Positions 11,578 to 22,054 of a DNA stretch of 64,000 bases are shown here, piece by piece; the first letter of the stretch is position 1, and each line of letters starts with the position of its first letter. Below the pieces are notes generated by a model. The model was given only the letters and a program-made list of their open reading frames with translations. It did no database searches and had not been told where the DNA came from. A program made the position numbers and the translations under genes. Source of the DNA: Clostridia bacterium (GTDB taxonomy: Bacteria > Bacillota > Clostridia > TANB77 > CAG-465); the NCBI GenBank assembly GCA_045611765.1, contig JAZKXT010000006.1:32203-96202 (forward strand), read 5' to 3'.

Positions 11578-14313
11578 ATGGAACAAAACGAAAACAAATT
11601 CTTAATTATAGATGGAAACAGTATAATGAATAGAGCGTTCTACGGCATAAGAATTTTGACAACAAAAGATGGAACATATACAAACGCAGCATATGGATTT
11701 TTAAATATATACTATATGATGCTAGAAAGACTAAATCCAAATTATGTAGTGGTTACTTTTGATGTTTCCAAACCAACATTCAGACATGAAATGTATGGAG
11801 AGTATAAGGCCGGACGTCGTTCTATGCCAGATGAACTTAGACCACAACTACCTCTTATAAAAGACATACTCTCAGCTATGAACATTCCAATATTAGAATT
11901 GGAAGGATATGAAGCAGATGATATTTTAGGAACTGTTGCAAAAAACAATTCTAAACAAGGTATAAAAACATATATACTAACAGGAGATAGAGACTCATTC
12001 CAACTTATAGACGAAAATACAAGCATTGTTATGCCATCTACTAAAATGGGTAAAACAGAATATACCATATATGATATACCAAAACTTAAAGAGGTATATA
12101 ATATAACTCCTAAACAAGTAATAGACATGAAAGCTCTTATGGGAGATAAATCAGATAATATTCCGGGCGTACCTATGGTTGGAGAAAAGACGGCAGTAGG
12201 ATTATTAGAATCATATAACAATTTGGATTATATATATTCGAATGTAGATACAATAGATGTAAGCGAAAAACTCAGAGAACGTTTAAAAGAAAATAAAGAT
12301 ATGGCATATTTGAGTTATAAGCTTGCTACTATAAATACAGACGTACCTGTTAATATGGATTATGACGAGTTTAAATTAAAAGACGTAAATCTTCCTAAAC
12401 TTAGTCAATTATTTACACGACTAGCTTTTAAGAAGTTCTTAGAAAGATATGTATCCGGAGAGGATATTAAAAATATCGAAACTGATTCGGCGGCTAAATT
12501 TTATAAAGACCTTTCTAAAACAGAATTCAAAATATTAACTACGCTCGATGAAGTAGAGAGTGCTATTGCAAATAGCAATGCAGAAATCGTGTTTACATAT
12601 ATAGATAATGATTTTTCATATGATAAATTAAGAAATAAAATGCTATTGTATATTCGTAATAGTATATATGTTATAGATATGCCTCAAGAGAATTTAAAAG
12701 ACGCTTTAAAAACTTTTTGCGAAGAGGACAGAGTAAAGATTGGGTATAACACTAAAAAGGTTTTAAAACTGTATTTTGATGCGGGGTATAGAAATCCTAT
12801 AGGGTTTAATCAAGATGTAATGATAGCATATTATTTGTTACACGCAACAGAAACAAATTACTCTATTACAAATATAGTATATAACTTATTAGATGTAGCA
12901 TTTCCGGAATTAGAGGATAGCTCAAAGAAAAAAACTATTCAAACTTCTCTTTTTGATATGTTAGATGCTCCAAGTGGAGCATCGGTAGAAAAACTAGAAT
13001 TAACAGATGTAGACAAAAAGTATATATATACATATTTAAAAGGGATTAAAGAGGCAAGGTATATTTTAAATGAAAAACTTAAGGAATTTAATCTAGATGA
13101 ATTATATAATAATATAGAAATACCACTTATTGAAACGCTTGCAAATATTGAAAGCAATGGTATGTATCTTGATACAAATAAATTAAAAGAGTTTTGTGTA
13201 TATTTAGATGAGCATATAACAGAGCTTACAAGTAAAATATATAAACTAGCAGGAGAAGAATTTAATATAAATTCACCTGCACAACTCGGGCATATTTTAT
13301 TTGAAAAATTAGATTTACCTTGTTCTAAGAAAACTAAAACAAGTTATTCTACGGATAAAGAGGTACTAGAAGCTATAGAGGATAAACACGAAATAGTACC
13401 ACTAGTGCTAGAGTATAGGTCGCTCGCCAAACTTGCATCAACTTATGGTGAAGGACTTCTTAGTTCGGTAGGAGAAGATGGAAGAATACATACAACATTT
13501 ATGCAGGCTGTAACAGCTACCGGAAGACTTAGCAGTGTAGAACCAAATCTTCAAAACATACCTGTAAGAACAGAAATAGGAAGCAGAATAAGAGAATGTT
13601 TTACAACACCTAATGAAAACACAAAACTAGTAGACGCAGACTATAGCCAAATTGAGCTTAGAGTTTTAGCAAGTATAGCAGATGACCATAATATGATAAA
13701 CGCATTTCTAAGTAATACAGACATACATTCCGTTACAGCTTCAGAAGTGTTTAATGTACCGTTAGAAAACGTTAGTAAAGATATTCGTGCTAAAGCAAAA
13801 GCAGTAAACTTTGGCATTGTGTATGGAATAAGTGATTTTGGTTTAGCTAAAAATATAAATTCTACGAGAGCTGAAGCTAAAGAATATATTACAAATTATT
13901 TAAATCACTATACTGGTATAGCAAACTTTATGACAGATTCTGTGAAATTTGGTGAGGCAAATGGATACGTTAAAACACTGTTTGGAAGAATTAGAAATGT
14001 GCCAGAATTAAAATCTTCAAACTATAATACTAAAAACTTTGGTGAAAGAGTTGCCATGAACATGCCAATTCAAGGTACTGCTGCAGATATAATGAAAATA
14101 GCTATGAATAATTTATATATGAAGTTTAAAGAGAATAATCTTAAATCTAAAATAGTAATGCAAGTTCATGACGAGCTTATTGTAGAAGCGACTTTAGATG
14201 AGCTAGAACAAGTTAAAGAATATATGAAATATGCAATGGAAAATGCAGCTAAATTAAAAATGCCGCTGGCCATAGATATAAACGTTGGAAATAGCTGGGT
14301 AGAGGCAAAATAG
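11578..14313 (+). CDS. polA: DNA polymerase I
   Basis: 5'-3' exonuclease N-terminus (LIIDGNSIMNRAFYG), Pol A motifs (RRSAKAVNFGIVYG-like, QVHDEL). Likely start is the ATG at 11578, 5 nt after GGAGG. The ORF track used the upstream ATG at 11566. Confidence 0.9.
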   Translation: MEQNENKFLIIDGNSIMNRAFYGIRILTTKDGTYTNAAYGFLNIYYMMLERLNPNYVVVTFDVSKPTFRHEMYGEYKAGRRSMPDELRPQLPLIKDILSAMNIPILELEGYEADDILGTVAKNNSKQGIKTYILTGDRDSFQLIDENTSIVMPSTKMGKTEYTIYDIPKLKEVYNITPKQVIDMKALMGDKSDNIPGVPMVGEKTAVGLLESYNNLDYIYSNVDTIDVSEKLRERLKENKDMAYLSYKLATINTDVPVNMDYDEFKLKDVNLPKLSQLFTRLAFKKFLERYVSGEDIKNIETDSAAKFYKDLSKTEFKILTTLDEVESAIANSNAEIVFTYIDNDFSYDKLRNKMLLYIRNSIYVIDMPQENLKDALKTFCEEDRVKIGYNTKKVLKLYFDAGYRNPIGFNQDVMIAYYLLHATETNYSITNIVYNLLDVAFPELEDSSKKKTIQTSLFDMLDAPSGASVEKLELTDVDKKYIYTYLKGIKEARYILNEKLKEFNLDELYNNIEIPLIETLANIESNGMYLDTNKLKEFCVYLDEHITELTSKIYKLAGEEFNINSPAQLGHILFEKLDLPCSKKTKTSYSTDKEVLEAIEDKHEIVPLVLEYRSLAKLASTYGEGLLSSVGEDGRIHTTFMQAVTATGRLSSVEPNLQNIPVRTEIGSRIRECFTTPNENTKLVDADYSQIELRVLASIADDHNMINAFLSNTDIHSVTASEVFNVPLENVSKDIRAKAKAVNFGIVYGISDFGLAKNINSTRAEAKEYITNYLNHYTGIANFMTDSVKFGEANGYVKTLFGRIRNVPELKSSNYNTKNFGERVAMNMPIQGTAADIMKIAMNNLYMKFKENNLKSKIVMQVHDELIVEATLDELEQVKEYMKYAMENAAKLKMPLAIDINVGNSWVEAK

Positions 14314-14324
14314 GAGAGAGGGCA

Positions 14325-14879
14325 TTGAAACAAATACTAAAAAAATTATTACAAATAATACTAGTTGTTATCTCTATTTGTATTGTTGTTTTATGGATAT
14401 ATAGGAATATTGTATATCCTAGAAAATACAAAGATATAGTTGAACAAGCCTCTAGCATATACAATGTAGACCCCAATTTGGTATATGCAATTATTAGACA
14501 AGAAAGCAAATTTAACAGTAATGCAACTTCACATAGTGAAGCAAAAGGTTTAATGCAACTTATGGATGCTACAGCTTATGATATGGCAAGAAAAATAGAT
14601 AGTATAGATGAGAAGGAGTATGACATATATGACCCTCGCACTAATATATTTTTAGGAACAAAATATATATCCTATTTAATAAATCATTTTGATGGTAATT
14701 ATTATTTAGCTATTGTAGCATATAACGCAGGAATGGGAAATACAAAAGCATGGTTAGACAAAGATTACAAAGACTATGAAACGTTTTTTGATGTATATGA
14801 ATGTGTAGAGTATTCTGAAACTAGAAACTATTTTAACAATGTAATCAAAAATTATAATTATTATACAATGTTATATTGA
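14325..14879 (+). CDS. Lytic transglycosylase (SLT domain), membrane-anchored
   Basis: AIIRQESKFNSNATSHSEAKGLMQLM with catalytic ES...GLMQ motif, N-terminal TM, TTG start. Confidence 0.75.
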   Translation: MKQILKKLLQIILVVISICIVVLWIYRNIVYPRKYKDIVEQASSIYNVDPNLVYAIIRQESKFNSNATSHSEAKGLMQLMDATAYDMARKIDSIDEKEYDIYDPRTNIFLGTKYISYLINHFDGNYYLAIVAYNAGMGNTKAWLDKDYKDYETFFDVYECVEYSETRNYFNNVIKNYNYYTMLY

Positions 14880-14893
14880 TGTCAGTATATATA

Positions 14894-14931
14894 AAAACAG
14901 ATTAGGTAGTTAATTTACCTAATCTGTTTTG
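14894..14931. terminator. Bidirectional rho-independent terminator at the left edge of the island
   Basis: Perfect 14-bp inverted repeat AAACAGATTAGGTA...TACCTAATCTGTTT with T/A runs on both sides. Confidence 0.75.
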
Positions 14932-14934
14932 CTT

Positions 14935-15537
14935 TTAGCCTGATGGTTCTGAGTATGCAATAAATCTTGTGATTTCACAAGTAAACTTATTAATTTGCAT
15001 CCTAGCAAGCATTAATACACCAGGAACACATCCATTATTACGGTCGATGTTCACAATTTCCTCATATGAGAGATTTTCTGTATCTTCGTTCATCGCATGA
15101 TATTTGAATTGCCAAAAATTATCTTCGATTTTTATAGCACATCTCTCGTTTAAGAACTCATCTAAAATTTCCTTTTGAGATTTCTTGTAACTGATTTGCG
15201 GCTTGTAATACTCATAATATTCTTGTTTAGGTACAACACCTTGAAGCATAGAATCAAAAACATATTCTTTGTCTTCAAACACAAATTCCACCCAACCATG
15301 TCTATATCCGCCATTTCGCCAAATCCATTCATCCTTTAAGGTGATTTCACCTCTTACAAGAAAGTCTTGAGGCTTAAGCCCCATAAGTGCATATCCACTA
15401 TAATAATAACAATTGTCGCGGTATCTATGTGAAAGATACTCTTCAAATGATTCAATTTTTGCACGACGTTCTACATAAACAATTTTAGTTCTTTGCAGAA
15501 AATATTGCCAAGCTCTGTGTACAACATTGTTATTCAT
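14935..15537 (-). CDS. Hypothetical protein (W/Y/C-rich), divergently transcribed first gene of the island
   Basis: 200-aa ORF, no family recognised, composition unlike neighbouring housekeeping genes. Confidence 0.4.
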   Translation of the reverse strand: MNNNVVHRAWQYFLQRTKIVYVERRAKIESFEEYLSHRYRDNCYYYSGYALMGLKPQDFLVRGEITLKDEWIWRNGGYRHGWVEFVFEDKEYVFDSMLQGVVPKQEYYEYYKPQISYKKSQKEILDEFLNERCAIKIEDNFWQFKYHAMNEDTENLSYEEIVNIDRNNGCVPGVLMLARMQINKFTCEITRFIAYSEPSG

Positions 15538-15726
15538 GCCGACATCTCCTTTATTGTATTAACAATTAATATTTAAACAAATCGCAAAATAATTATATCA
15601 CAGACAACGGAGTGTTGCAATGCAAAGCCTTGTAAATTGACATAATGTATGATATAATAATTACGCAATTTATATAAAGTAGAAGTAATTATCTTTTACA
15701 AGAACACTTTGTTGGAGGGAAATATT

Positions 15727-16479
15727 ATGAAATTAACTGTACTTGGAACTGTTTCACCTTATCTTCGCTTTGACCATAACGGACCGGGATTTCTTATTGA
15801 AGATGACAGCCATAGAGTTTTACTTGACTGCGGCAGTGGCATCACAAGACATTTAACAATGCCGTGGCATTTAGACAATCTTCATGTATTTATTAGCCAT
15901 TTTCATCGAGACCATTACAACGAAATATACAATATTCAGTATGCATCTTATGTTTATAACAAACGGGGTGAATTGACAACTCCTATAGACATCCATTTGC
16001 CTACTGTTACAATGAGTCGTTTTGAAGACATTGTATCAGAAGAGTATGCTTTCGCTAATTACCACATAATTATTGACGAATATGAAGGCGTTCAAGTAGG
16101 GAACCTTAAGGTTACGTTTTGCTTGACGGGACACACCGTAGAGTCTTATGCTTTTAAAGTATCAGACGGTAAACACACAATAGTATATACTTCGGACATA
16201 TCATATTCTGTAAAAGATATTATTGTGAGTTTTGCTAAAGATGCAGATGTGCTTATTTGTGATTCTAGCCTTTTAGAAATTTATGGATTACCTGAAATCA
16301 CTTCGCATATTACAGCAAAACAAGCAGCAACTATTGCCAAGGAAGCCAATGTTAAACAATTGCTTCTTACACATTTTTGGCCTCAAGAACTATTCGGAAA
16401 CTATTTGACAGAAGCAAAACAAGTCTTTTACAATGTTAATCTGGCTACAGAGCAAATGGTTATTGATTTTAATGATTGA
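15727..16479 (+). CDS. MBL-fold metallo-hydrolase (RNase Z / beta-lactamase-like)
   Basis: HFHRDH (HxHxDH) motif, VLLDCGSG. ATG at 15727 is preceded by GGAGGG. Locally higher GC, around 40%. Confidence 0.7.
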   Translation: MKLTVLGTVSPYLRFDHNGPGFLIEDDSHRVLLDCGSGITRHLTMPWHLDNLHVFISHFHRDHYNEIYNIQYASYVYNKRGELTTPIDIHLPTVTMSRFEDIVSEEYAFANYHIIIDEYEGVQVGNLKVTFCLTGHTVESYAFKVSDGKHTIVYTSDISYSVKDIIVSFAKDADVLICDSSLLEIYGLPEITSHITAKQAATIAKEANVKQLLLTHFWPQELFGNYLTEAKQVFYNVNLATEQMVIDFND

Positions 16480-16514
16480 TATTTTATCGTGGATAAGAAA
16501 TGGGGGACGCATTA

Positions 16515-16724
16515 ATGTGCGACTGTTGCAACGGTGTAGGTCAAAAGTTTGAAGCGCGTGGTATGAATTGTAAAATTGTTATTCGGCAAAACATTATGTC
16601 TGTGTATTTGCCAAATAACGCAACGGATTTAAGAGTTACTTTTTGCCCTTTATGTGGCAGAAAACTTAATGTAGTAGAACGAAGGCTAGAAAACAATATT
16701 AATAACAAAGATATTAAGGAGTGA
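16515..16724 (+). CDS. Small zinc-ribbon protein
   Basis: CDCC...C and CPLCG pairs. 69-74 aa depending on start choice. Confidence 0.45.
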   Translation: MCDCCNGVGQKFEARGMNCKIVIRQNIMSVYLPNNATDLRVTFCPLCGRKLNVVERRLENNINNKDIKE

Positions 16725-16728
16725 TACT

Positions 16729-17244
16729 ATGAAATTAGATCTCAAATATAAAAGATTAGAAGAGATTGTCTCTGTTTTTATGTCCGAAGAAGATGTGACT
16801 GTGGATTTATTAAAACTTGCTCGGGAGCTAGGTATATCTGTAATTGAAAAGGCGTTTCAACCTGCAATAATTGAGAACGAAGAAGTTCTATGTGCATTTG
16901 TCACTAATAAAAGCGGGAACTCTTGTATTTTCTATAGCTCTAAATTTTTAGAGGATAAAGACTTTATTGCAGGTCGTTTAGCTATTGTCAGTACGTTTGT
17001 AAAACATATAGTAACAGGTGAAAACAGTTTCGTTACTACAAACCGAACAACTTTCTCGCCTAAAGAGCAACAGCTAATTTATGAATTACTTATGCCTGAA
17101 AAGCAAGTTAGAGTAATGTGTAACAAACTTTTGCTCCCAACGACTTATGCATTAGCTAACATTTTTAGCGTTTCACAAGAATTCGTAAGAGCTCGGTTAG
17201 ATGCTATGGGAATGAACAAGAACATAGCGGGATACAATTATTAA
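16729..17244 (+). CDS. ImmA/IrrE-family (COG2856-like) protein with a degenerate metallopeptidase motif
   Basis: Layout LLKLARELGISVIE ... RLAIVSTFVKHIV ... ELLMPEKQ ... FSVSQEFVRARL parallels ImmA/IrrE, but HEXXH is replaced by STFVKH. Good RBS AAGGAG. Confidence 0.4.
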   Translation: MKLDLKYKRLEEIVSVFMSEEDVTVDLLKLARELGISVIEKAFQPAIIENEEVLCAFVTNKSGNSCIFYSSKFLEDKDFIAGRLAIVSTFVKHIVTGENSFVTTNRTTFSPKEQQLIYELLMPEKQVRVMCNKLLLPTTYALANIFSVSQEFVRARLDAMGMNKNIAGYNY

Positions 17245-17261
17245 TCTTAAAGGAGAGCCAA

Positions 17262-17900
17262 ATGCAGTTATTTTGTATTAGAGATTGGAACAATAAGAAG
17301 CATTACTTCACAGCACGAGGACTATACAAAAGGATTATGCGAGATAGCCGTTCTAATTATAATTGGATTGCATCAGCAACGGAACTTGTAAAAGTATGTG
17401 AACGCTCAGATTTTCCTAAGAAATATGCTTTAGAAATAGAGCTTGCTATTCTAAATTGCTTTGCAAATTTGGAAACAAAAAGACATCTCGATTCCATGCA
17501 AGACTCCCATGACGCTGATTCAGTAGACTATTGCTATAGAGCAATTAGTATTGCAAACGACCCCAAAGACCCTCGAATTATTGCTGTTAAGCAAAAGTAT
17601 TTAAAAGCTATAATAGCGGGAGTAGTACAGTATAAACATCCAATAGGGAACTCATTCAGAAATGTACCAAATTACGGACCTGCTTATCGCAAAATATGTG
17701 AAGAATGGCAGAAACAACGTTTGGAAGAGTACCAAGACGTATATTTAGCTAGTTCTGCAATATTACGCATAGCTCTGTCAGAAGATTTTGAACAGACAAT
17801 AAAAGCTGCTGAAGAAAAAGGTATTTTCGAAAAAGAGCAAAACGACAGACTTAACCGGATTATTTCATACGATTGGATACCACCAGATCATATTCTATGA
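17262..17900 (+). CDS. Hypothetical protein, last gene of the island
   Basis: 212-aa ORF with RBS AAAGGAG, no family recognised. Confidence 0.4.
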   Translation: MQLFCIRDWNNKKHYFTARGLYKRIMRDSRSNYNWIASATELVKVCERSDFPKKYALEIELAILNCFANLETKRHLDSMQDSHDADSVDYCYRAISIANDPKDPRIIAVKQKYLKAIIAGVVQYKHPIGNSFRNVPNYGPAYRKICEEWQKQRLEEYQDVYLASSAILRIALSEDFEQTIKAAEEKGIFEKEQNDRLNRIISYDWIPPDHIL

Positions 17901-17914
17901 ATTTCAGCAATATA

Positions 17915-17951
17915 TAAACACACCTTAAACTATTTGTTTGAGGTGTGTTTA
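17915..17951 (+). terminator. Rho-independent terminator at the right edge of the island
   Basis: 11-bp stem TAAACACACCT/AGGTGTGTTTA. Confidence 0.65.
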
Positions 17952-18140
17952 TATACATTGTTAATGTTTAGTATATTACTATAATACTTCCATATAATAG
18001 ATATAGAAGTTTCCATATATTACTAATTACTTATTATAAATAATGTGTGAAATTAAGTTCAAACGTTGCTATTACTATTTTTTTATAGTAAAATTATATA
18101 GTTAAAATTAGTATGTGTAATTTGATTTTGTGGAGGGAAT

Positions 18141-21100
18141 ATGCTACAAATAAAAAATATATCTAAAAAATATAAAACAGGGGAGTTAGTACAAATTGCA
18201 TTAAATGACGTAAGCTTAAACTTTAGAGACAACGAATTTGTATCTATTTTAGGACCAAGTGGTAGTGGTAAAACTACGTTGCTTAATATAGTAGGTGGGT
18301 TAGATAGATATGACACAGGTGATTTAATAATAAACAATGTATCTACTAAAGACTATAAAGATAGAGACTGGGATTCATATAGAAACCACACTGTTGGTTT
18401 TGTGTTCCAAAGCTATAACTTGATACCTCATCAAACGATACTGGCAAACGTTGAACTGGCTTTAACTATTGGTGGTATTTCTAAGGGAGAAAGAAAGAGA
18501 AGGGCATTAGAAGCATTGGACAAAGTTGGGTTAAAAGACCAAGCACACAAAAGGCCAAACCAAATGTCTGGTGGACAAATGCAAAGAGTTGCTATCGCGA
18601 GAGCCTTGGTCAATAATCCAGACATACTTCTCGCTGACGAACCAACGGGAGCTTTAGATACAGAAACAAGCGTACAGGTTATGGAACTTCTAAAAGAAGT
18701 AGCAAACGATAGACTTGTTATAATGGTAACTCACAACCCAGAACTTGCAGAAACATATTCTACAAGAATAGTTAAATTAAGGGATGGAAAGGTAATTGAT
18801 GATTCGAATCCATGTTTCATAGAAGACAAAAAGAAGGAGAAACCTAAATACAAAAACCTAGGTAAGGCTTCAATGTCAATAATGACAGCGTTATCTTTAA
18901 GCTTTAACAATTTACTTACTAAAAAGGGAAGAACAATACTTACAGCATTTGCGGGCTCAATAGGTATAATTGGCATAGCTCTTATTCTGGCTTTATCTAC
19001 TGGCTTTCAAAATTATATAGACAAGATACAAGAAGATACCTTGACATCATATCCGTTAACAATAACGTCCGAAACTGCTGATGCAACATCAATGATTTTA
19101 TCTATGGTGCCGGGTGAAAGTGAACCAAGAAACGATGACATTGTAAAAGAGAACAAAAACTTCACTAATATGTTTTCAAAAATAGGAGAAAATGACCTTA
19201 AATCTCTCAAATACTTTTTACAAGATAATAAGAAAAAAGTAGATAGTATGGTGGCGTTAACTCAATATAGATATAATGTGAGCCCACTCATATATACTAA
19301 AGATGTAAAAGGGAACATAACAAAATTGAATCCAAGTGAAATTCTTGCATCTATGTACGGAGGAGATTCAATATTATCCATGGCTAGCGGCACAGTATCT
19401 GTATTTACTGAAATGATAGATAACGATGCTATGGCTAAAAGCTCATACCAAATGTTAAAAGGAAATTGGCCACAAAATTATGATGAAGTATTATTGGTAC
19501 TTCCAGCAGAAAATGAAATTTCAGACTTGTTGTTATTTAGCTTAGGATTAAAAGATATAAAAGAACTAGAGAAAATGTTAACCAATATAACGCAAGGCGA
19601 AGGAACTGAAGATAACACAGCACCTCTCGAACTTACATATGATGAACTTATGAACATAGAACTTAAACTTATACATGCTTCTGATACCTACAAATATAAT
19701 AGTAAATATAAAGTATATGAGGATATGGCAACAGATAAGAAGTTTATGGAAAACCTATATAATAATTCTCTAAAATTAAAAATAGTTGGAATTGCAGCTC
19801 CAAAAGACAGTTCAAATTCTTCCAACCTAATGTCGGGAGTATTATATAAAAAAGAACTCACAGAGTATGTAATAAATACGGCAGCTGAATCTGAAATAGT
19901 AAAAAAACAACTAGAAAATAAAAATATAAATGTATTTAGTAATAAATACTTCGATGACGAACAAGATAACACAGGCCTCAACTTCGAGGATATGATATCT
20001 ATAGATACAAATATGTTATCTTCAGCCTTCGGTGTAAAAATTGATGAGAAGGATATAGCAAATATGACAGAGGGCTATATGAGCGAAATATCTAAAGCCA
20101 TTACAACAGATACATCCAAAGCAGAAAAAGCGTTTATAGATACTTTAGCTTCCATTACAAAAGGTTTACTAAATAACTATATAGATAGTAGTGAGGTTGT
20201 AGGCTTTGCTACAATTAAACTAAGTCAGGTAGACAGCGTGGTAAACAAGTATATGCAATCAGAAGCAGTGATAGCTTTACTGACTGAGTTAGAAAAAGAA
20301 TATGTTATACCAAAAGATACATTTACTACAATGTACTCTGAAATTATTAAAGGCTTCTTTAAGCAGTATATATCTATGATGGATTCTACTTCTGAAGATC
20401 CAAGCGCTATGCTTGTAAAAAGTGCTGTCGATACGATAGTTGCAGCGTTTACATCACAGGAAATGATTTTGACTACTGCCAAAACCATGGGCGGCAAAAT
20501 GGTAGAAGCCTCTATGAATAAAACGATTCTAACAACAGTAGGGGAGCTAAGCGGGAAATTAATGTCAACTATGGCATCCGCATTTAATGTTGACGAAAGT
20601 AAAATTGCAAAAGCATTTAAATTTAATTTAGATGAAGATGAACTAAAAAGATTATTCCAAGCTATGACAAATACAACTACAAAGAGTTCTGAGACCAATT
20701 TAACTTCTCTTGGTTACCAAAATTTAGATGAACCAACCGCAACATCTTTTTATTTTAAAGACTTTGCATCAAAAGAAAACTTTATATCTTTTTTAGACGA
20801 GTATAATAATCAAATGGAAAAAGAAGACGATGAAAAAGTTATAAAATATACAGACATAACTGGAATATTAATGTCATCTGTGAAAGTAATAGTAGATAGT
20901 GTAAGCTACGTCCTTATAGCATTTGTAAGTATATCTTTAATAGTATCATCAATTATGATAGGTATAATTACATACATTTCTGTACTTGAGCGTACTAAAG
21001 AAATTGGCGTATTAAGAGCTATAGGAGCATCGAAGAAAAACATTTCATCTATATTTAACGCAGAGACATTTATAGTTGGACTATTTGCAGGACTTCTTGG

Positions 21101-21305
21101 TATAGGGGTATCGCTATTACTACTATTCCCAATAAATGGCATAATACATGCTGTTACAAACAATATGAATATAACAGCAGTACTTCCAACATCGGGCGCA
21201 ATTGTACTAGTAATACTAAGCGTAATACTTACACTTATTGGTGGATTAATTCCATCAAAACAAGCTGCTAAGAAAGACCCAGTACTTGCTCTTAGAAGTG
21301 AGTAA
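18141..21305 (+). CDS. MacB-type fused ABC transporter (ATPase plus FtsX-like permease) with a roughly 600-aa extracytoplasmic domain
   Basis: Walker A GPSGSGKTT, signature LSGGQMQR, Walker B LLADEPT, TM1 around aa 265-290, long hydrophilic domain, three C-terminal TM helices. Confidence 0.8.
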   Translation: MLQIKNISKKYKTGELVQIALNDVSLNFRDNEFVSILGPSGSGKTTLLNIVGGLDRYDTGDLIINNVSTKDYKDRDWDSYRNHTVGFVFQSYNLIPHQTILANVELALTIGGISKGERKRRALEALDKVGLKDQAHKRPNQMSGGQMQRVAIARALVNNPDILLADEPTGALDTETSVQVMELLKEVANDRLVIMVTHNPELAETYSTRIVKLRDGKVIDDSNPCFIEDKKKEKPKYKNLGKASMSIMTALSLSFNNLLTKKGRTILTAFAGSIGIIGIALILALSTGFQNYIDKIQEDTLTSYPLTITSETADATSMILSMVPGESEPRNDDIVKENKNFTNMFSKIGENDLKSLKYFLQDNKKKVDSMVALTQYRYNVSPLIYTKDVKGNITKLNPSEILASMYGGDSILSMASGTVSVFTEMIDNDAMAKSSYQMLKGNWPQNYDEVLLVLPAENEISDLLLFSLGLKDIKELEKMLTNITQGEGTEDNTAPLELTYDELMNIELKLIHASDTYKYNSKYKVYEDMATDKKFMENLYNNSLKLKIVGIAAPKDSSNSSNLMSGVLYKKELTEYVINTAAESEIVKKQLENKNINVFSNKYFDDEQDNTGLNFEDMISIDTNMLSSAFGVKIDEKDIANMTEGYMSEISKAITTDTSKAEKAFIDTLASITKGLLNNYIDSSEVVGFATIKLSQVDSVVNKYMQSEAVIALLTELEKEYVIPKDTFTTMYSEIIKGFFKQYISMMDSTSEDPSAMLVKSAVDTIVAAFTSQEMILTTAKTMGGKMVEASMNKTILTTVGELSGKLMSTMASAFNVDESKIAKAFKFNLDEDELKRLFQAMTNTTTKSSETNLTSLGYQNLDEPTATSFYFKDFASKENFISFLDEYNNQMEKEDDEKVIKYTDITGILMSSVKVIVDSVSYVLIAFVSISLIVSSIMIGIITYISVLERTKEIGVLRAIGASKKNISSIFNAETFIVGLFAGLLGIGVSLLLLFPINGIIHAVTNNMNITAVLPTSGAIVLVILSVILTLIGGLIPSKQAAKKDPVLALRSE

Positions 21306-21321
21306 CGTAATTTATATAAAA

Positions 21322-21350
21322 TTAGGTAGGACGACGAATCCTACCTTTAA
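21322..21350 (+). terminator. Rho-independent terminator after the ABC transporter
   Basis: AGGTAGG-cgacgaat-CCTACCT then TTTAATT. Confidence 0.65.
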
Positions 21351-21453
21351 TTATGTCAATTCCACTTGTAATGTTATGTAAATTATGATACAATATATGT
21401 GTTCGCAAAACTTTAACTCAATAAATAATTTCAAACGAGGGGAGAAGCATATT

Positions 21454-21906
21454 ATGAAAGACAGCAAGTTAATTAAATTAGGTAAAGTGGTAGAGCTACT
21501 ACCAAAGCAATCCAACAGTGGATTTATGATGCGGTACGGCTTACCGTTCGGTAAGAGGTCATTAACAAGCATAAGTGTTTCAGCAAACGACAAGGCTAAA
21601 AGTTTTATCTATTTTAACCAAGGCATGTCCAGCATTAAGCTAAATCGAAGCTCTGTCAGTATTAATATTAACAACGGCGAATATAAGCCCGGGAATGTGG
21701 AAGATACACTCCTTCTAATTGTTTCTGGTGCCAAGCAATTGGTGACTACTGCTGAAACAATCTATAAAAAAGAAGTCTCTGAGGCGGTAGTATTTATGCA
21801 TTTTGGAGACACTATACAATTATCCCAGTCATCTCATGGCAAATGTTCAGAATATAAGATTGTTAAGAATAACAACAAATTGTTCCTTGTATTAAACAGG
21901 GAATAA
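21454..21906 (+). CDS. Hypothetical protein
   Basis: ORF with RBS GAGGGGAG before the ATG at 21454. Terminator hairpin at 21943-21975 (AAAAGGCAAGC/GCTTGCCTTTT). Confidence 0.4.
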   Translation: MKDSKLIKLGKVVELLPKQSNSGFMMRYGLPFGKRSLTSISVSANDKAKSFIYFNQGMSSIKLNRSSVSININNGEYKPGNVEDTLLLIVSGAKQLVTTAETIYKKEVSEAVVFMHFGDTIQLSQSSHGKCSEYKIVKNNNKLFLVLNRE

Positions 21907-22054
21907 GGCCCAAACTTTGATTTTAATTTACAAAAATTATATAAAAGGCAAGCAAAATTTGCTTGCCTTTTAGCTATTTTTAAGCATAACTACTACACAA
22001 ATATATAATTTTATGGTAAAATTATTAAAGTAAATTTTAAAGGAGAGTGGAATT

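What the first reader, a model, noticed from the sequence alone, without database searches (positions are those of the whole stretch)
14894..17951. Terminator-bounded compositional island: MBL-fold hydrolase, Zn-ribbon, catalytically degenerate ImmA/IrrE-like protein and two unknowns
Between slt and the ABC transporter lies a 3-kb block with visibly higher GC (roughly 35-42% against about 28% outside). Near-perfect hairpin terminators sit at both edges. One gene is divergent (200 aa, W/Y/C-rich, no recognisable family) and it shares a promoter region with four co-directional genes. These are an MBL-fold hydrolase (HFHRDH), a 70-aa CxxC Zn-ribbon protein, a protein laid out like ImmA/IrrE (COG2856) whose HEXXH is replaced by STFVKH while ELLMP and FSVS..RL are retained, and a 212-aa unknown. 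ImmA/IrrE-like modules are hallmarks of mobile elements and of sensor/regulator parts of phage-defence and toxin-antitoxin-like systems, and a pseudo-protease version suggests a binding or regulatory role. The combination does not match any named system I know. It could be an uncharacterised defence or stress module acquired horizontally.
Basis: partly seen in the sequence, partly recalled or inferred. Interest (0 to 1): 0.7.

Follow-up and report, generated by a model that had tools for sequence, protein, structure and literature searches.

The report
Mosaic accessory slot with dead ImmA-like protein
The 3-kb block is a fast-changing slot for accessory genes in an uncultured Clostridia chromosome, built around a cyclic-nucleotide phosphodiesterase-like enzyme and carrying a catalytically dead ImmA/IrrE/CapP-like protein; I found no evidence that it is one horizontally acquired defence system.

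Summary
The five ORFs, both hairpin terminators and the shared divergent promoter region are real. The GC contrast is overstated: 34.4% in the block against 31.6% for the window.

The gene calls hold up and can be sharpened:
- The MBL protein is a YhfI/Apyc1-type class II phosphodiesterase.
- The 200-aa "unknown" is a papain/transglutaminase-like protein with a conserved Cys-His-Asp.
- The 212-aa protein remains unassigned.

The reading as a single island or system is not supported. Five related genomes or contigs carry different gene sets in the slt–ABC slot: 200|MBL|Zn|171|212, LysM|MBL|212, 200|MBL|Zn, and 200|MBL|Zn|223. A sixth, more distant relative has an empty slot and also lacks the ABC gene. 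Only the MBL gene is present in every occupied slot.

Elsewhere each family occurs alone, in housekeeping or Mob_Pre/resolvase contexts. There were no PADLOC hits and no close or family-level matches in the viral-contig, phage or plasmid searches. The block has no integrase and no flanking repeats.

Block proteins are 59–81% identical to their orthologues, against 83–97% for most flanking proteins, so this is a rapidly diversifying accessory locus. Interest is modest.

The parts
14894..14930 (.). Bidirectional intrinsic-terminator hairpin between slt (+) and the 200-aa gene (-). Perfect 15-bp arms with a 7-nt loop.
   Evidence: I6, 100% complementary; z -6.9 and -6.7 on the two strands.
14935..15537 (-). 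200-aa protein of an unannotated family (at least 127 clusters at 90% identity). Papain/transglutaminase-like fold with conserved Cys43, His80 and Asp95. Transcribed divergently from the operon.
15538..15726 (.). Shared divergent promoter region. The minus-strand promoter runs from 15620 to 15592 (TTGCAA-17-TATAAT). The plus-strand promoter is at 15630-15658 (TTGTAA-17-TATAAT). Both have a TG-extended -10. The two -10 regions form an imperfect inverted repeat (15572-15600 / 15650-15678).
   Evidence: I1; conserved in L009, L010 and L021.
15727..16479 (+). MBL-fold class II phosphodiesterase of the YhfI/Apyc1 type (250 aa from the ATG; a TTG at 15709 is an alternative start). HFHRDH at residues 58-63. 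It is the only gene present in every occupied haplotype of the slot.
16500..16724 (+). 74-aa zinc-ribbon protein (CDCC...CPLC). It is a truncated form of a 133-134-aa protein in L009/L010 and lacks the C-terminal tail domain. The L021 orthologue is split by a frameshift.
16729..17244 (+). 171-aa minimal M78 (ImmA/IrrE/CapP-fold) pseudo-peptidase. It has no HEXXH, one histidine and no GAF domain. The family is small: 8 clusters at 90% identity found by the word-indexed search of 5.8 billion sequences.
17262..17900 (+). 212-aa protein of an unannotated family. No Pfam, PDB or PADLOC match and fold not determined. Usually a stand-alone gene in Clostridia-like contigs. A few members have an N-terminal hydrophobic extension that looks like a membrane anchor.
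   Evidence: 212 representatives at 50% identity..
17911..17955 (+). Operon terminator: 20-bp arms, 95% complementary, 5-nt loop. It travels with the 212-aa gene, since homologous hairpins follow that gene in L021 and L052. L009 and L010 have a different terminator here.
   Evidence: (I3).
17969..18140 (+). Conserved leader and promoter region of the ABC/FtsX gene. It lies outside the variable block and is the point where collinearity with the relatives resumes. It contains a duplicated TTTCCATATA motif (17988-18006 and 18010-18027).

Best explanation
The block is a mosaic, rapidly diversifying accessory-gene slot between slt and a MacB-like ABC/FtsX gene in the chromosome of an uncultured Clostridia lineage. 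It is not one coherent system.

Anchor gene. The only gene present in every occupied version of the slot is a YhfI/Apyc1-type class II (MBL-fold) phosphodiesterase. It is transcribed from a conserved promoter with an extended -10 box. By inference from its characterised relatives it hydrolyses 3',5'-cyclic mononucleotides.

Interchangeable cargo. Downstream of the phosphodiesterase, and divergently upstream, the lineage carries different genes in different genomes:
- a papain/transglutaminase-like Cys-His-Asp enzyme (the 200-aa gene, replaced by a LysM protein in one relative);
- a zinc-ribbon protein (full length, truncated, frameshifted or absent);
- a catalytically dead minimal M78 protein (171 aa);
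- a 212-aa protein of unknown fold;
- in one relative, a 223-aa hydrophobic protein that appears membrane-bound.

In this window the four plus-strand genes form one operon. The gaps between them are 4-20 nt, there is no internal terminator, and one strong terminator closes the operon.

The 171-aa protein. It keeps the peptidase-plus-HTH-like-linker scaffold of ImmA/IrrE/CapP. It cannot bind the catalytic zinc in the zincin manner, so it most likely acts by binding a partner or ligand rather than by cleaving a repressor.

Shown: the anatomy, the fold assignments, the loss of catalytic residues, the variability of the slot and the independent distribution of the families.
Inferred: the phosphodiesterase substrate, a binding role for the pseudo-peptidase, and thiol-hydrolase or amidase chemistry for the 200-aa protein.
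For: - Slot haplotypes. Window: 200|MBL|Zn-short|171|212. L021: 200+178|MBL|Zn-frameshifted|167|205. L052: LysM|MBL|207. L010: 200|MBL|Zn-long. L009: 200|divergent MBL|75|Zn-long|223. L011: slot and ABC gene both absent.
- Divergence. Most flanking proteins are 83-97% identical to L009/L010 (one small SNase-like neighbour is only 68-69%). Block proteins are 59-81% identical. The 171-aa protein is only 50% identical to its L021 orthologue.
- Independent distribution. The 171 family stands alone between DedA and tyrS, or occurs as a tandem pair in L001. The 212 family stands alone in several chromosomal contexts and once lies just downstream of a resolvase/Mob_Pre gene cluster. The 200 family sits among housekeeping genes or near Mob_Pre/TnpV/resolvase genes.
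- MBL. Full-length similarity to BA1088 and YhfI and to NF041851. The HxHxDH motif is intact. YhfI and Apyc1 biochemistry is described in PMC9117128.
- 200-aa protein..
- No PADLOC hits. No matches of the four families in viral contigs.
- Terminators and promoters..
Against: - Only six related loci could be compared, and three of them are short contigs. The ancestral state and the direction of gain or loss are therefore not resolved.
- Persistent co-transcription of MBL with its downstream cargo could still mean functional coupling. MBL-212 adjacency recurs in three haplotypes.
- A 200-family gene lies 650 bp from a distant Apyc1-like MBL in the unrelated loci L026-28.
- The MBL scores far below the NCBIfam equivalog cutoff (93 against 400 bits). 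My own Pfam scan did not report PF23023, although the precomputed annotation of its orthologues does (against 36, 90).
- No function was tested.
Confidence: 0.6

Rival explanations
1. The operon is one functional module linked to cyclic-nucleotide signalling. This would be a new defence, counter-defence or immune-regulatory system. The phosphodiesterase would set cNMP levels. The dead CapP/ImmA-like protein would sense a signal (ssDNA or a ligand) or hold a partner. The 212-aa and papain-like proteins would act as effector or regulator.
For: - The closest structural relative of the 171-aa protein is CapP, the regulator of CBASS and other immune operons.
- The orthologues of the MBL carry the precomputed Anti-Pycsar_Apyc1 family call.
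- The genes are co-transcribed with short gaps.
- The locus is hypervariable and diverges fast, as immune loci often do.
- MBL+212 recurs in three haplotypes.
- A 200-family gene lies near an Apyc1-like MBL in L026-28.
Against: - None of the five proteins matches PADLOC.
- A PADLOC scan of 44 other window proteins returned no family named as a cyclase, Pycsar or CBASS component.
- There is no HTH repressor partner for the M78-like protein.
- Haplotypes drop 171, the Zn-ribbon gene or the 200-aa gene freely.
- Outside this lineage the families occur singly.
- In 9 non-redundant loci carrying the 200 family, no neighbour family recurred beyond chance.
Confidence: 0.12
2. The block is the decayed remnant of a horizontally acquired mobile element (a genomic island) that has lost its mobility genes.
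For: - GC and GC3 are slightly raised.
- Block proteins are much more divergent than the flanks.
- The 200-aa and 212-aa families occur beside or inside elements carrying resolvase, Mob_Pre, TnpV or KilA-N.
- The whole 14877-21987 stretch is missing in the more distant relative L011.
Against: - The block has no integrase, transposase or relaxase, and no tRNA gene was seen in it or in its immediate flanks (no dedicated tRNA scan was run).
- There are no meaningful flanking direct repeats. The only candidate is an 18-nt, 83% match that lies inside the two terminators.
- The same genes sit at the same position in several sibling genomes, with conserved promoters.
- The stretch deleted in L011 also includes the ABC gene, so it does not delimit this block.
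- The composition is within the range seen elsewhere in the window.
Confidence: 0.15
3. It is an ordinary conserved housekeeping operon: an RNase Z/YhfI-like nuclease with small accessory proteins and no special biology.
For: - The MBL gene is present in all occupied haplotypes.
- It scores against the RNase Z and YhfI models.
- The neighbourhood is chromosomal core: polA, slt, yebC, tRNA synthetases, Clp, RuvB.
Against: - The slot is empty in L011.
- The MBL allele in L009 is only 59% identical while the flanks are about 90%.
- The cargo genes come and go.
- The RNase Z matches are partial and weak compared with the YhfI-type matches.
- RNase J is present elsewhere in the window.
Confidence: 0.08

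Closest known systems
ImmA / IrrE (PprI) / CapP: M78 (COG2856) zinc metallopeptidases that cleave XRE-type repressors
   Same: - Weak Pfam PF06114 hits in 6 of 9 family members.
- Conserved E..L..E.LMP and F.VS..FVR.RL motifs at the places of the M78 EAN.FA..LLMP and F.VS...RL motifs (the M78 motifs are recalled from my own knowledge).
- The size is close to that of B. subtilis ImmA (about 170 aa, from memory).
   Different: - No HEXXH in any member. The first His is replaced by S/R, the Glu by T/A and the second His by K. The window protein has only one histidine.
- No GAF domain, unlike IrrE and CapP (one search gives the CapP architecture).
- No adjacent HTH repressor gene.
- Scores below the Pfam gathering threshold (14.5 against 22 bits).
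- Not on a phage or ICE in any locus seen.
PrpR/RamB-type regulators with a non-catalytic M78-like domain (M. tuberculosis PrpR, 6d2s/6cyj)
   Same: - From my own recollection of the PrpR literature, which I did not check here, that domain serves as a ligand-binding module and not as a protease. That is a precedent for a non-catalytic M78 scaffold.
   Different: - PrpR is a multidomain transcription factor with an N-terminal XRE HTH domain. The 171-aa protein is the bare M78-like domain.
- There is no four-cysteine cluster. Only Cys55 is invariant, and there are 2-5 Cys per protein in the nine sequences counted.
YhfI (B. subtilis), BA1088 and phage Apyc1: class II MBL-fold cyclic-nucleotide phosphodiesterases
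   Same: - Full-length sequence similarity: 1zkp E 1.7e-30 and YhfI 6kns E 8.5e-28.
- NF041851 aligned end to end.
- Intact HxHxDH.
- The orthologues carry the precomputed PF23023 call.
- Size of about 250 aa.
   Different: - Far below the NCBIfam equivalog cutoff (93 against 400 bits).
- No match to Apyc1 crystal-structure sequences at E <= 0.001.
- Only 25-34% identity to the phage-record homologues.
- Whether it has the Apyc1-specific loop that allows cCMP/cUMP cleavage (PMC9117128) was not determined.
- Substrate untested.
Transglutaminase-like / papain-fold thiol enzymes (LapG, NTAQ1/C8orf32, TglA, protein-glutaminase, SseI; Pfam Tox-PL-2)
   Same: - Cys43 is nearly invariant in an N-C-Y-Y-Y-S motif where the model places a helix start. 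His80 is nearly invariant in H-G-W-V-E-F. Asp95 is invariant in F-D-S. The order is the canonical Cys-His-Asp.
- Weak Tox-PL-2 hits in 8 of 40 members.
   Different: - No Pfam family reaches significance.
- Foldseek against the PDB found nothing.
- It is a stand-alone protein with no signal peptide noted by eye and no toxin-delivery or immunity context.
- A tandem paralogue in L021 lacks the His and the Asp.

Membership tests
M78 peptidase (ImmA/IrrE/CapP, Pfam PF06114, COG2856) | Sequence match to the family model above the curated threshold | tested here: not met
   Window protein: 14.5 bits against a 22-bit cutoff, E 0.031, C-terminal part only. 6 of 9 family members match weakly, best E 9.2e-5.
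M78 peptidase (ImmA/IrrE/CapP, Pfam PF06114, COG2856) | Zincin fold of the peptidase domain with the following HTH-like helices | tested here: met
   [not shown]
M78 peptidase (ImmA/IrrE/CapP, Pfam PF06114, COG2856) | HEXXH zinc-binding and catalytic motif | tested here: not met
   No HE..H and no H..H or H...H in any of the 9 sequences. The window protein has a single His.
M78 peptidase (ImmA/IrrE/CapP, Pfam PF06114, COG2856) | Third zinc ligand (Glu downstream of HEXXH; Glu129 in CapP) | tested here: inconclusive
   Glu113 and Glu119 are invariant in the E..L..E.LMP motif. No residue-level structural superposition was available.
M78 peptidase (ImmA/IrrE/CapP, Pfam PF06114, COG2856) | Adjacent XRE/HTH repressor substrate (ImmR, DdrO, CapH) | tested here: not met
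   No HTH family matched any of the five proteins. None was evident next to homologues in L001, L002-8 or L021.
IrrE/CapP subfamily | C-terminal GAF domain | tested here: not met
   The protein ends after the HTH-like helices at residue 171. CapP is 278 aa with a GAF domain.
YhfI/Apyc1 class II cyclic-nucleotide phosphodiesterase (NF041851, PF23023) | MBL fold with an HxHxDH di-zinc motif | tested here: met
   Lactamase_B_2, E 8e-14. HFHRDH at residues 58-63.
YhfI/Apyc1 class II cyclic-nucleotide phosphodiesterase (NF041851, PF23023) | End-to-end similarity to characterised members rather than to RNase Z | tested here: met
   [not shown]
YhfI/Apyc1 class II cyclic-nucleotide phosphodiesterase (NF041851, PF23023) | Score above the curated equivalog cutoff | tested here: not met
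   NF041851: 93 bits against a cutoff of 400. PF23023 was not reported by my scans, although it is precomputed for the orthologues.
YhfI/Apyc1 class II cyclic-nucleotide phosphodiesterase (NF041851, PF23023) | Hydrolysis of cNMPs, and the Apyc1-specific loop giving cCMP/cUMP activity | not testable with these tools
   Needs enzymology or a structural comparison. The criteria come from PMC9117128.
Transglutaminase-like / papain-fold cysteine enzymes | Conserved Cys-His-Asp in canonical order on a papain-like core | tested here: met
   [not shown]
Transglutaminase-like / papain-fold cysteine enzymes | Significant match to a named family model or solved structure by sequence or Foldseek | tested here: not met
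   Pfam gives only weak Tox-PL-2 (best E 0.0019) and Transglut_core (E 0.17) hits. The PDB profile search found nothing relevant. Foldseek E > 0.1.
Known anti-phage defence systems (PADLOC-DB v2) | Any component model matched | tested here: not met
   No family at E <= 1 for any of the five proteins.
Horizontally acquired genomic island | Atypical composition | tested here: inconclusive
   34.4% against 31.6% GC, about +1.5 SD, 96th percentile. Other regions of the window are higher.
Horizontally acquired genomic island | Mobility genes, att-like direct repeats or a tRNA target | tested here: not met
   No integrase or transposase ORF in the block. The only repeat at the boundaries is an 18-nt, 83% match inside the terminators. 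No dedicated tRNA scan was run.
Horizontally acquired genomic island | Absent as a unit from close relatives, leaving slt next to the ABC gene | tested here: not met
   L009 and L010 keep 200+MBL+Zn. L052 keeps MBL+212. L011 lacks the block but also lacks the ABC gene.

The most novel reading that the evidence does not exclude
The phosphodiesterase-anchored slot is a diversifying hub for cyclic-nucleotide signalling or immune regulation. A catalytically dead CapP/ImmA-like protein, perhaps together with the 212-aa protein or the papain-like enzyme, would sense a stress or phage cue. It would then control cNMP turnover or a downstream effector by binding rather than by proteolysis. That would make it a pseudo-peptidase branch of the CapP/IrrE regulatory logic, working without an XRE repressor.
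Probability: 0.08. Interest if true: 0.65.

Novelty: new variant of a known kind. Interest (0 to 1): 0.3.

Why it matters
- The work turns a suspected "new defence island" into something more ordinary: a hypervariable accessory slot whose genes are distributed independently of one another.
- It identifies three uncharacterised protein families that could be annotated or given Pfam entries:
  - a small family of M78 pseudo-peptidases whose members all lack the zinc site;
  - a widespread papain/transglutaminase-like Cys-His-Asp family of about 200 aa;
  - a roughly 200-aa family of unknown fold.
- If the pseudo-M78 protein proves to be a ligand or partner sensor, it would extend the ImmA/IrrE/CapP paradigm to non-proteolytic signalling.
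- If the MBL enzyme degrades immune cNMPs in a bacterial chromosome, it bears on the open question raised for host-encoded Apyc1 homologues (PMC9117128).

Tried and rejected
- Exact-sequence look-up of the window's 171-aa protein gave no contig, although the cluster table lists it on a 118.5-kb NCBI contig. The source record could not be retrieved.
- A profile search of the 171 family against PDB sequences gave only a chance HTH hit. Structure prediction was needed.
- PHROGs gave only weak hits: phrog_87 metallo-protease at E 7e-4 for the 171-aa protein and phrog_392 hydrolase for the MBL.
- Profile searches of the 200 and 212 families against PDB sequences gave nothing credible (thymidine kinase, a designed repeat protein).
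- An apparent link between the 212 family and trigger factor (P0323) is a chimeric or fused sequence, not homology.
- Longer members of the 212 family carry only hydrophobic N-terminal extensions and no informative domains.
- I tested whether the 200-aa family is functionally linked to Apyc1-like MBLs, as suggested by L026-28. It was rejected as a general rule. None of the other roughly 12 longer loci has an MBL homologue detectable by tblastn, and the neighbours are unrelated housekeeping genes.
- Viral-contig scans for all four families, and phage and plasmid database searches, found no family-level matches. The one exception is low-identity MBL hits in Listeria and Enterococcus phage records.
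- Rfam found nothing in 14000-18600.
- The afdb50 fold library was unavailable.
- Foldseek against the PDB was uninformative for the 200-aa model.

Full report
**1. What is in the sequence**

- a 200-aa gene on the minus strand (14935-15537);
- an MBL-fold gene (ATG at 15727, alternative TTG at 15709, ending at 16479);
- a 74-aa CxxC...CxxC gene (16500-16724);
- a 171-aa gene (16729-17244);
- a 212-aa gene (17262-17900).

The four plus-strand genes are separated by 20, 4 and 17 nt with no terminator between them. All genes except the Zn-ribbon gene have strong Shine-Dalgarno sequences.

Both edge hairpins are real. 14894-14930 has perfect 15-bp arms and folds on either strand (z -6.9 and -6.7). 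17911-17955 has 20-bp arms (z -7.6). None of 200 shuffles did as well.

The 189-bp divergent intergenic region contains back-to-back promoters with TG-extended -10 boxes. These are conserved in three relatives.

The compositional claim is overstated. The block is 34.4% GC against 31.6% for the window, which is about +1.5 SD for same-size windows and the 96th percentile. Other parts of the window are richer. GC3 is only mildly raised.

**2. What the proteins are**

*212-aa protein.* It belongs to a family of about 212 representatives at 50% identity. It has no Pfam, PDB or PADLOC match. A few members have hydrophobic N-terminal extensions. One apparent link to trigger factor is a chimera. Its fold was not determined.

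*74-aa Zn-ribbon protein.* It is the N-terminal half of a 133-134-aa protein found in L009 and L010. The tail domain is missing here, and in L021 it is split off by a frameshift.

**3. Is it an island or a system?**

A PolA-based scan found three related "Clostridia bacterium" MAGs, with PolA identities of 91%, 90% and 78%. Exact-protein look-ups added two short syntenic contigs, L021 and L052.

The slot between slt and the ABC/FtsX gene has at least five occupied versions:

| Locus | Slot content |
|---|---|
| window | 200 \| MBL \| Zn-short \| 171 \| 212 |
| L021 | 200 + degenerate 178-aa paralogue \| MBL \| Zn-frameshifted \| 167 \| 205 |
| L052 | LysM protein \| MBL \| 207 |
| L010 | 200 \| MBL \| Zn-long |
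| L009 | 200 \| divergent MBL \| 75 \| Zn-long \| 223-aa hydrophobic protein |
| L011 | empty; window 14877-21987 is missing, including the ABC gene |

Only the MBL gene is present in every occupied slot.

The terminator at 17911-17955 travels with the 212-aa gene. L009 and L010 have a different terminator.

Most flanking proteins are 83-97% identical between the window and L009/L010; the exception is a small SNase-like neighbour at 68-69%. Block proteins are 59-81% identical. The 171-aa protein is only 50% identical to its L021 orthologue. The locus is therefore hypervariable and fast-evolving. It is not, however, a unit that was inserted between slt and the ABC gene.

Outside this lineage the families are not linked:
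- The 171 family stands alone between DedA and tyrS (L002-8). In L001 it occurs as two tandem paralogues beside a sirtuin.
- The 212 family stands alone in several chromosomal contexts. In L013 it lies just downstream of a resolvase/Mob_Pre gene cluster.
- The 200 family sits among unrelated housekeeping genes. In three distinct contexts it lies beside Mob_Pre, TnpV or resolvase genes.
- Only in L026-28 is a 200-family gene near a distant Apyc1-like MBL.

None of the five proteins hits PADLOC. None of the four families was found in IMG/VR viral contigs. The 171-aa protein found no match in the phage collection and the 200-aa protein none in the plasmid collection. The block has no mobility genes and no meaningful flanking repeats. 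The rest of the window is chromosomal core. A PADLOC scan of 44 other window proteins returned no family named as a cyclase, Pycsar or CBASS component.

**4. Most likely explanation**

This is an accessory-gene slot anchored by a YhfI/Apyc1-type phosphodiesterase. Downstream and divergent cargo genes are exchanged, truncated and lost. The phosphodiesterase probably hydrolyses cyclic mononucleotides; this is inferred from its characterised relatives. The 171-aa protein is a pseudo-peptidase that can only act by binding. From my recollection of the PrpR literature, which I did not check here, the M78-like domain of PrpR is a precedent for a non-catalytic use of this fold. The 200-aa protein is probably a thiol hydrolase, amidase or transglutaminase-type enzyme.

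I put about 0.6 on this "mosaic cargo, no single system" reading. I put about 0.12 on a coherent cNMP-linked immune or regulatory module, about 0.15 on a decayed mobile island and under 0.1 on plain housekeeping.

**5. Novelty and interest**

The components are new members or variants of known superfamilies. The most distinctive is the small M78 family whose members all lack the catalytic site. The five-gene combination is not a conserved architecture, so it does not define a new system. Interest is 0.3.

Noticed in passing
window 21385-21906 (+): A 173-aa ORF with the highest GC3 in the window (0.40) and no Pfam match. It is absent from L009, L010 and L011 while its neighbours (the ABC gene and yebC) are conserved. 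This is a second strain-specific insertion just downstream of the ABC gene.
   Followed up: partly
window 17988-18027 (the leader of the ABC/FtsX gene is 17969-18140): A duplicated motif, TTCCATATAATAGATATAG ... TTTCCATATATTACTAAT, in a leader that is almost invariant across the window, L009, L010, L021 and L052. It may be an operator or regulatory site for the MacB-like transporter. There is no Rfam match.
   Followed up: partly
L011 13293-13333 (corresponds to window 14877-21987): The 78%-PolA relative lacks the whole stretch from the end of slt to just before yebC. That includes the 1054-aa ABC/FtsX gene, so the transporter itself is accessory in this group.
   Followed up: partly
L009 14161-14934: The MBL allele in L009 is only 59% identical to the window's, although flanking proteins are about 90% identical. 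The L010 and L021 alleles are 79-81% identical. This looks like allelic replacement by recombination at the anchor gene.
   Followed up: no
L021 405-941 (-): A tandem 178-aa paralogue of the 200-aa family. The conserved His and Asp are replaced (PFGWLEF and FSP in place of HGWVEF and FDS), so it is a degenerate copy next to an intact one.
   Followed up: no
L001 8544-10984: In an unrelated 39%-GC metagenome contig, two tandem paralogues of the pseudo-M78 family (160 and 161 aa, 36% identical to each other). They follow a sirtuin-like SIR2 gene and a 166-aa protein that has an E-V-K motif suggestive of a PD-(D/E)xK nuclease (my reading, and it has no Pfam hit).
   Followed up: partly
L023-L025 1-11359: A 200-family homologue (67% identical) lies inside a cluster of two large serine recombinases, two Mob_Pre relaxases, TnpV and KilA-N, resembling a Tn4451-like mobilisable element. 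A 477-aa Transglut_core protein lies nearby.
   Followed up: partly
L013 4803-5000: A 65-aa ORF in a resolvase/Mob_Pre gene cluster resembles the C-terminal tail domain of the long Zn-ribbon protein of L009/L010 (38% over 65 aa). It lies 1 kb upstream of a 212-family gene.
   Followed up: no
window, 44 proteins outside the block: Strong PADLOC matches to DndA/SspA (E about 1e-158, probably a housekeeping cysteine desulfurase) and to the candidate family PDC-S34 (E 7e-113). Pfam also reports a Phage_integrase and a PDDEXK_2 transposase somewhere in the window. The genes responsible were not located.
   Followed up: no
P0323: A 263-aa database protein that joins a trigger-factor C-terminal segment to the C-terminal half of a 212-family protein. 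It is probably an assembly or gene-call chimera.
   Followed up: yes
window 15727-16479 and L021 1133-1882: The precomputed annotations give PF23023 (Anti-Pycsar_Apyc1) for the L021, L052 and L026 MBL proteins. Direct hmmscan against the session's Pfam copy did not list PF23023 for the window MBL or for the L021 and L009 orthologues (L052 and L026 were not scanned). This is an unexplained discrepancy between the two resources.
   Followed up: partly
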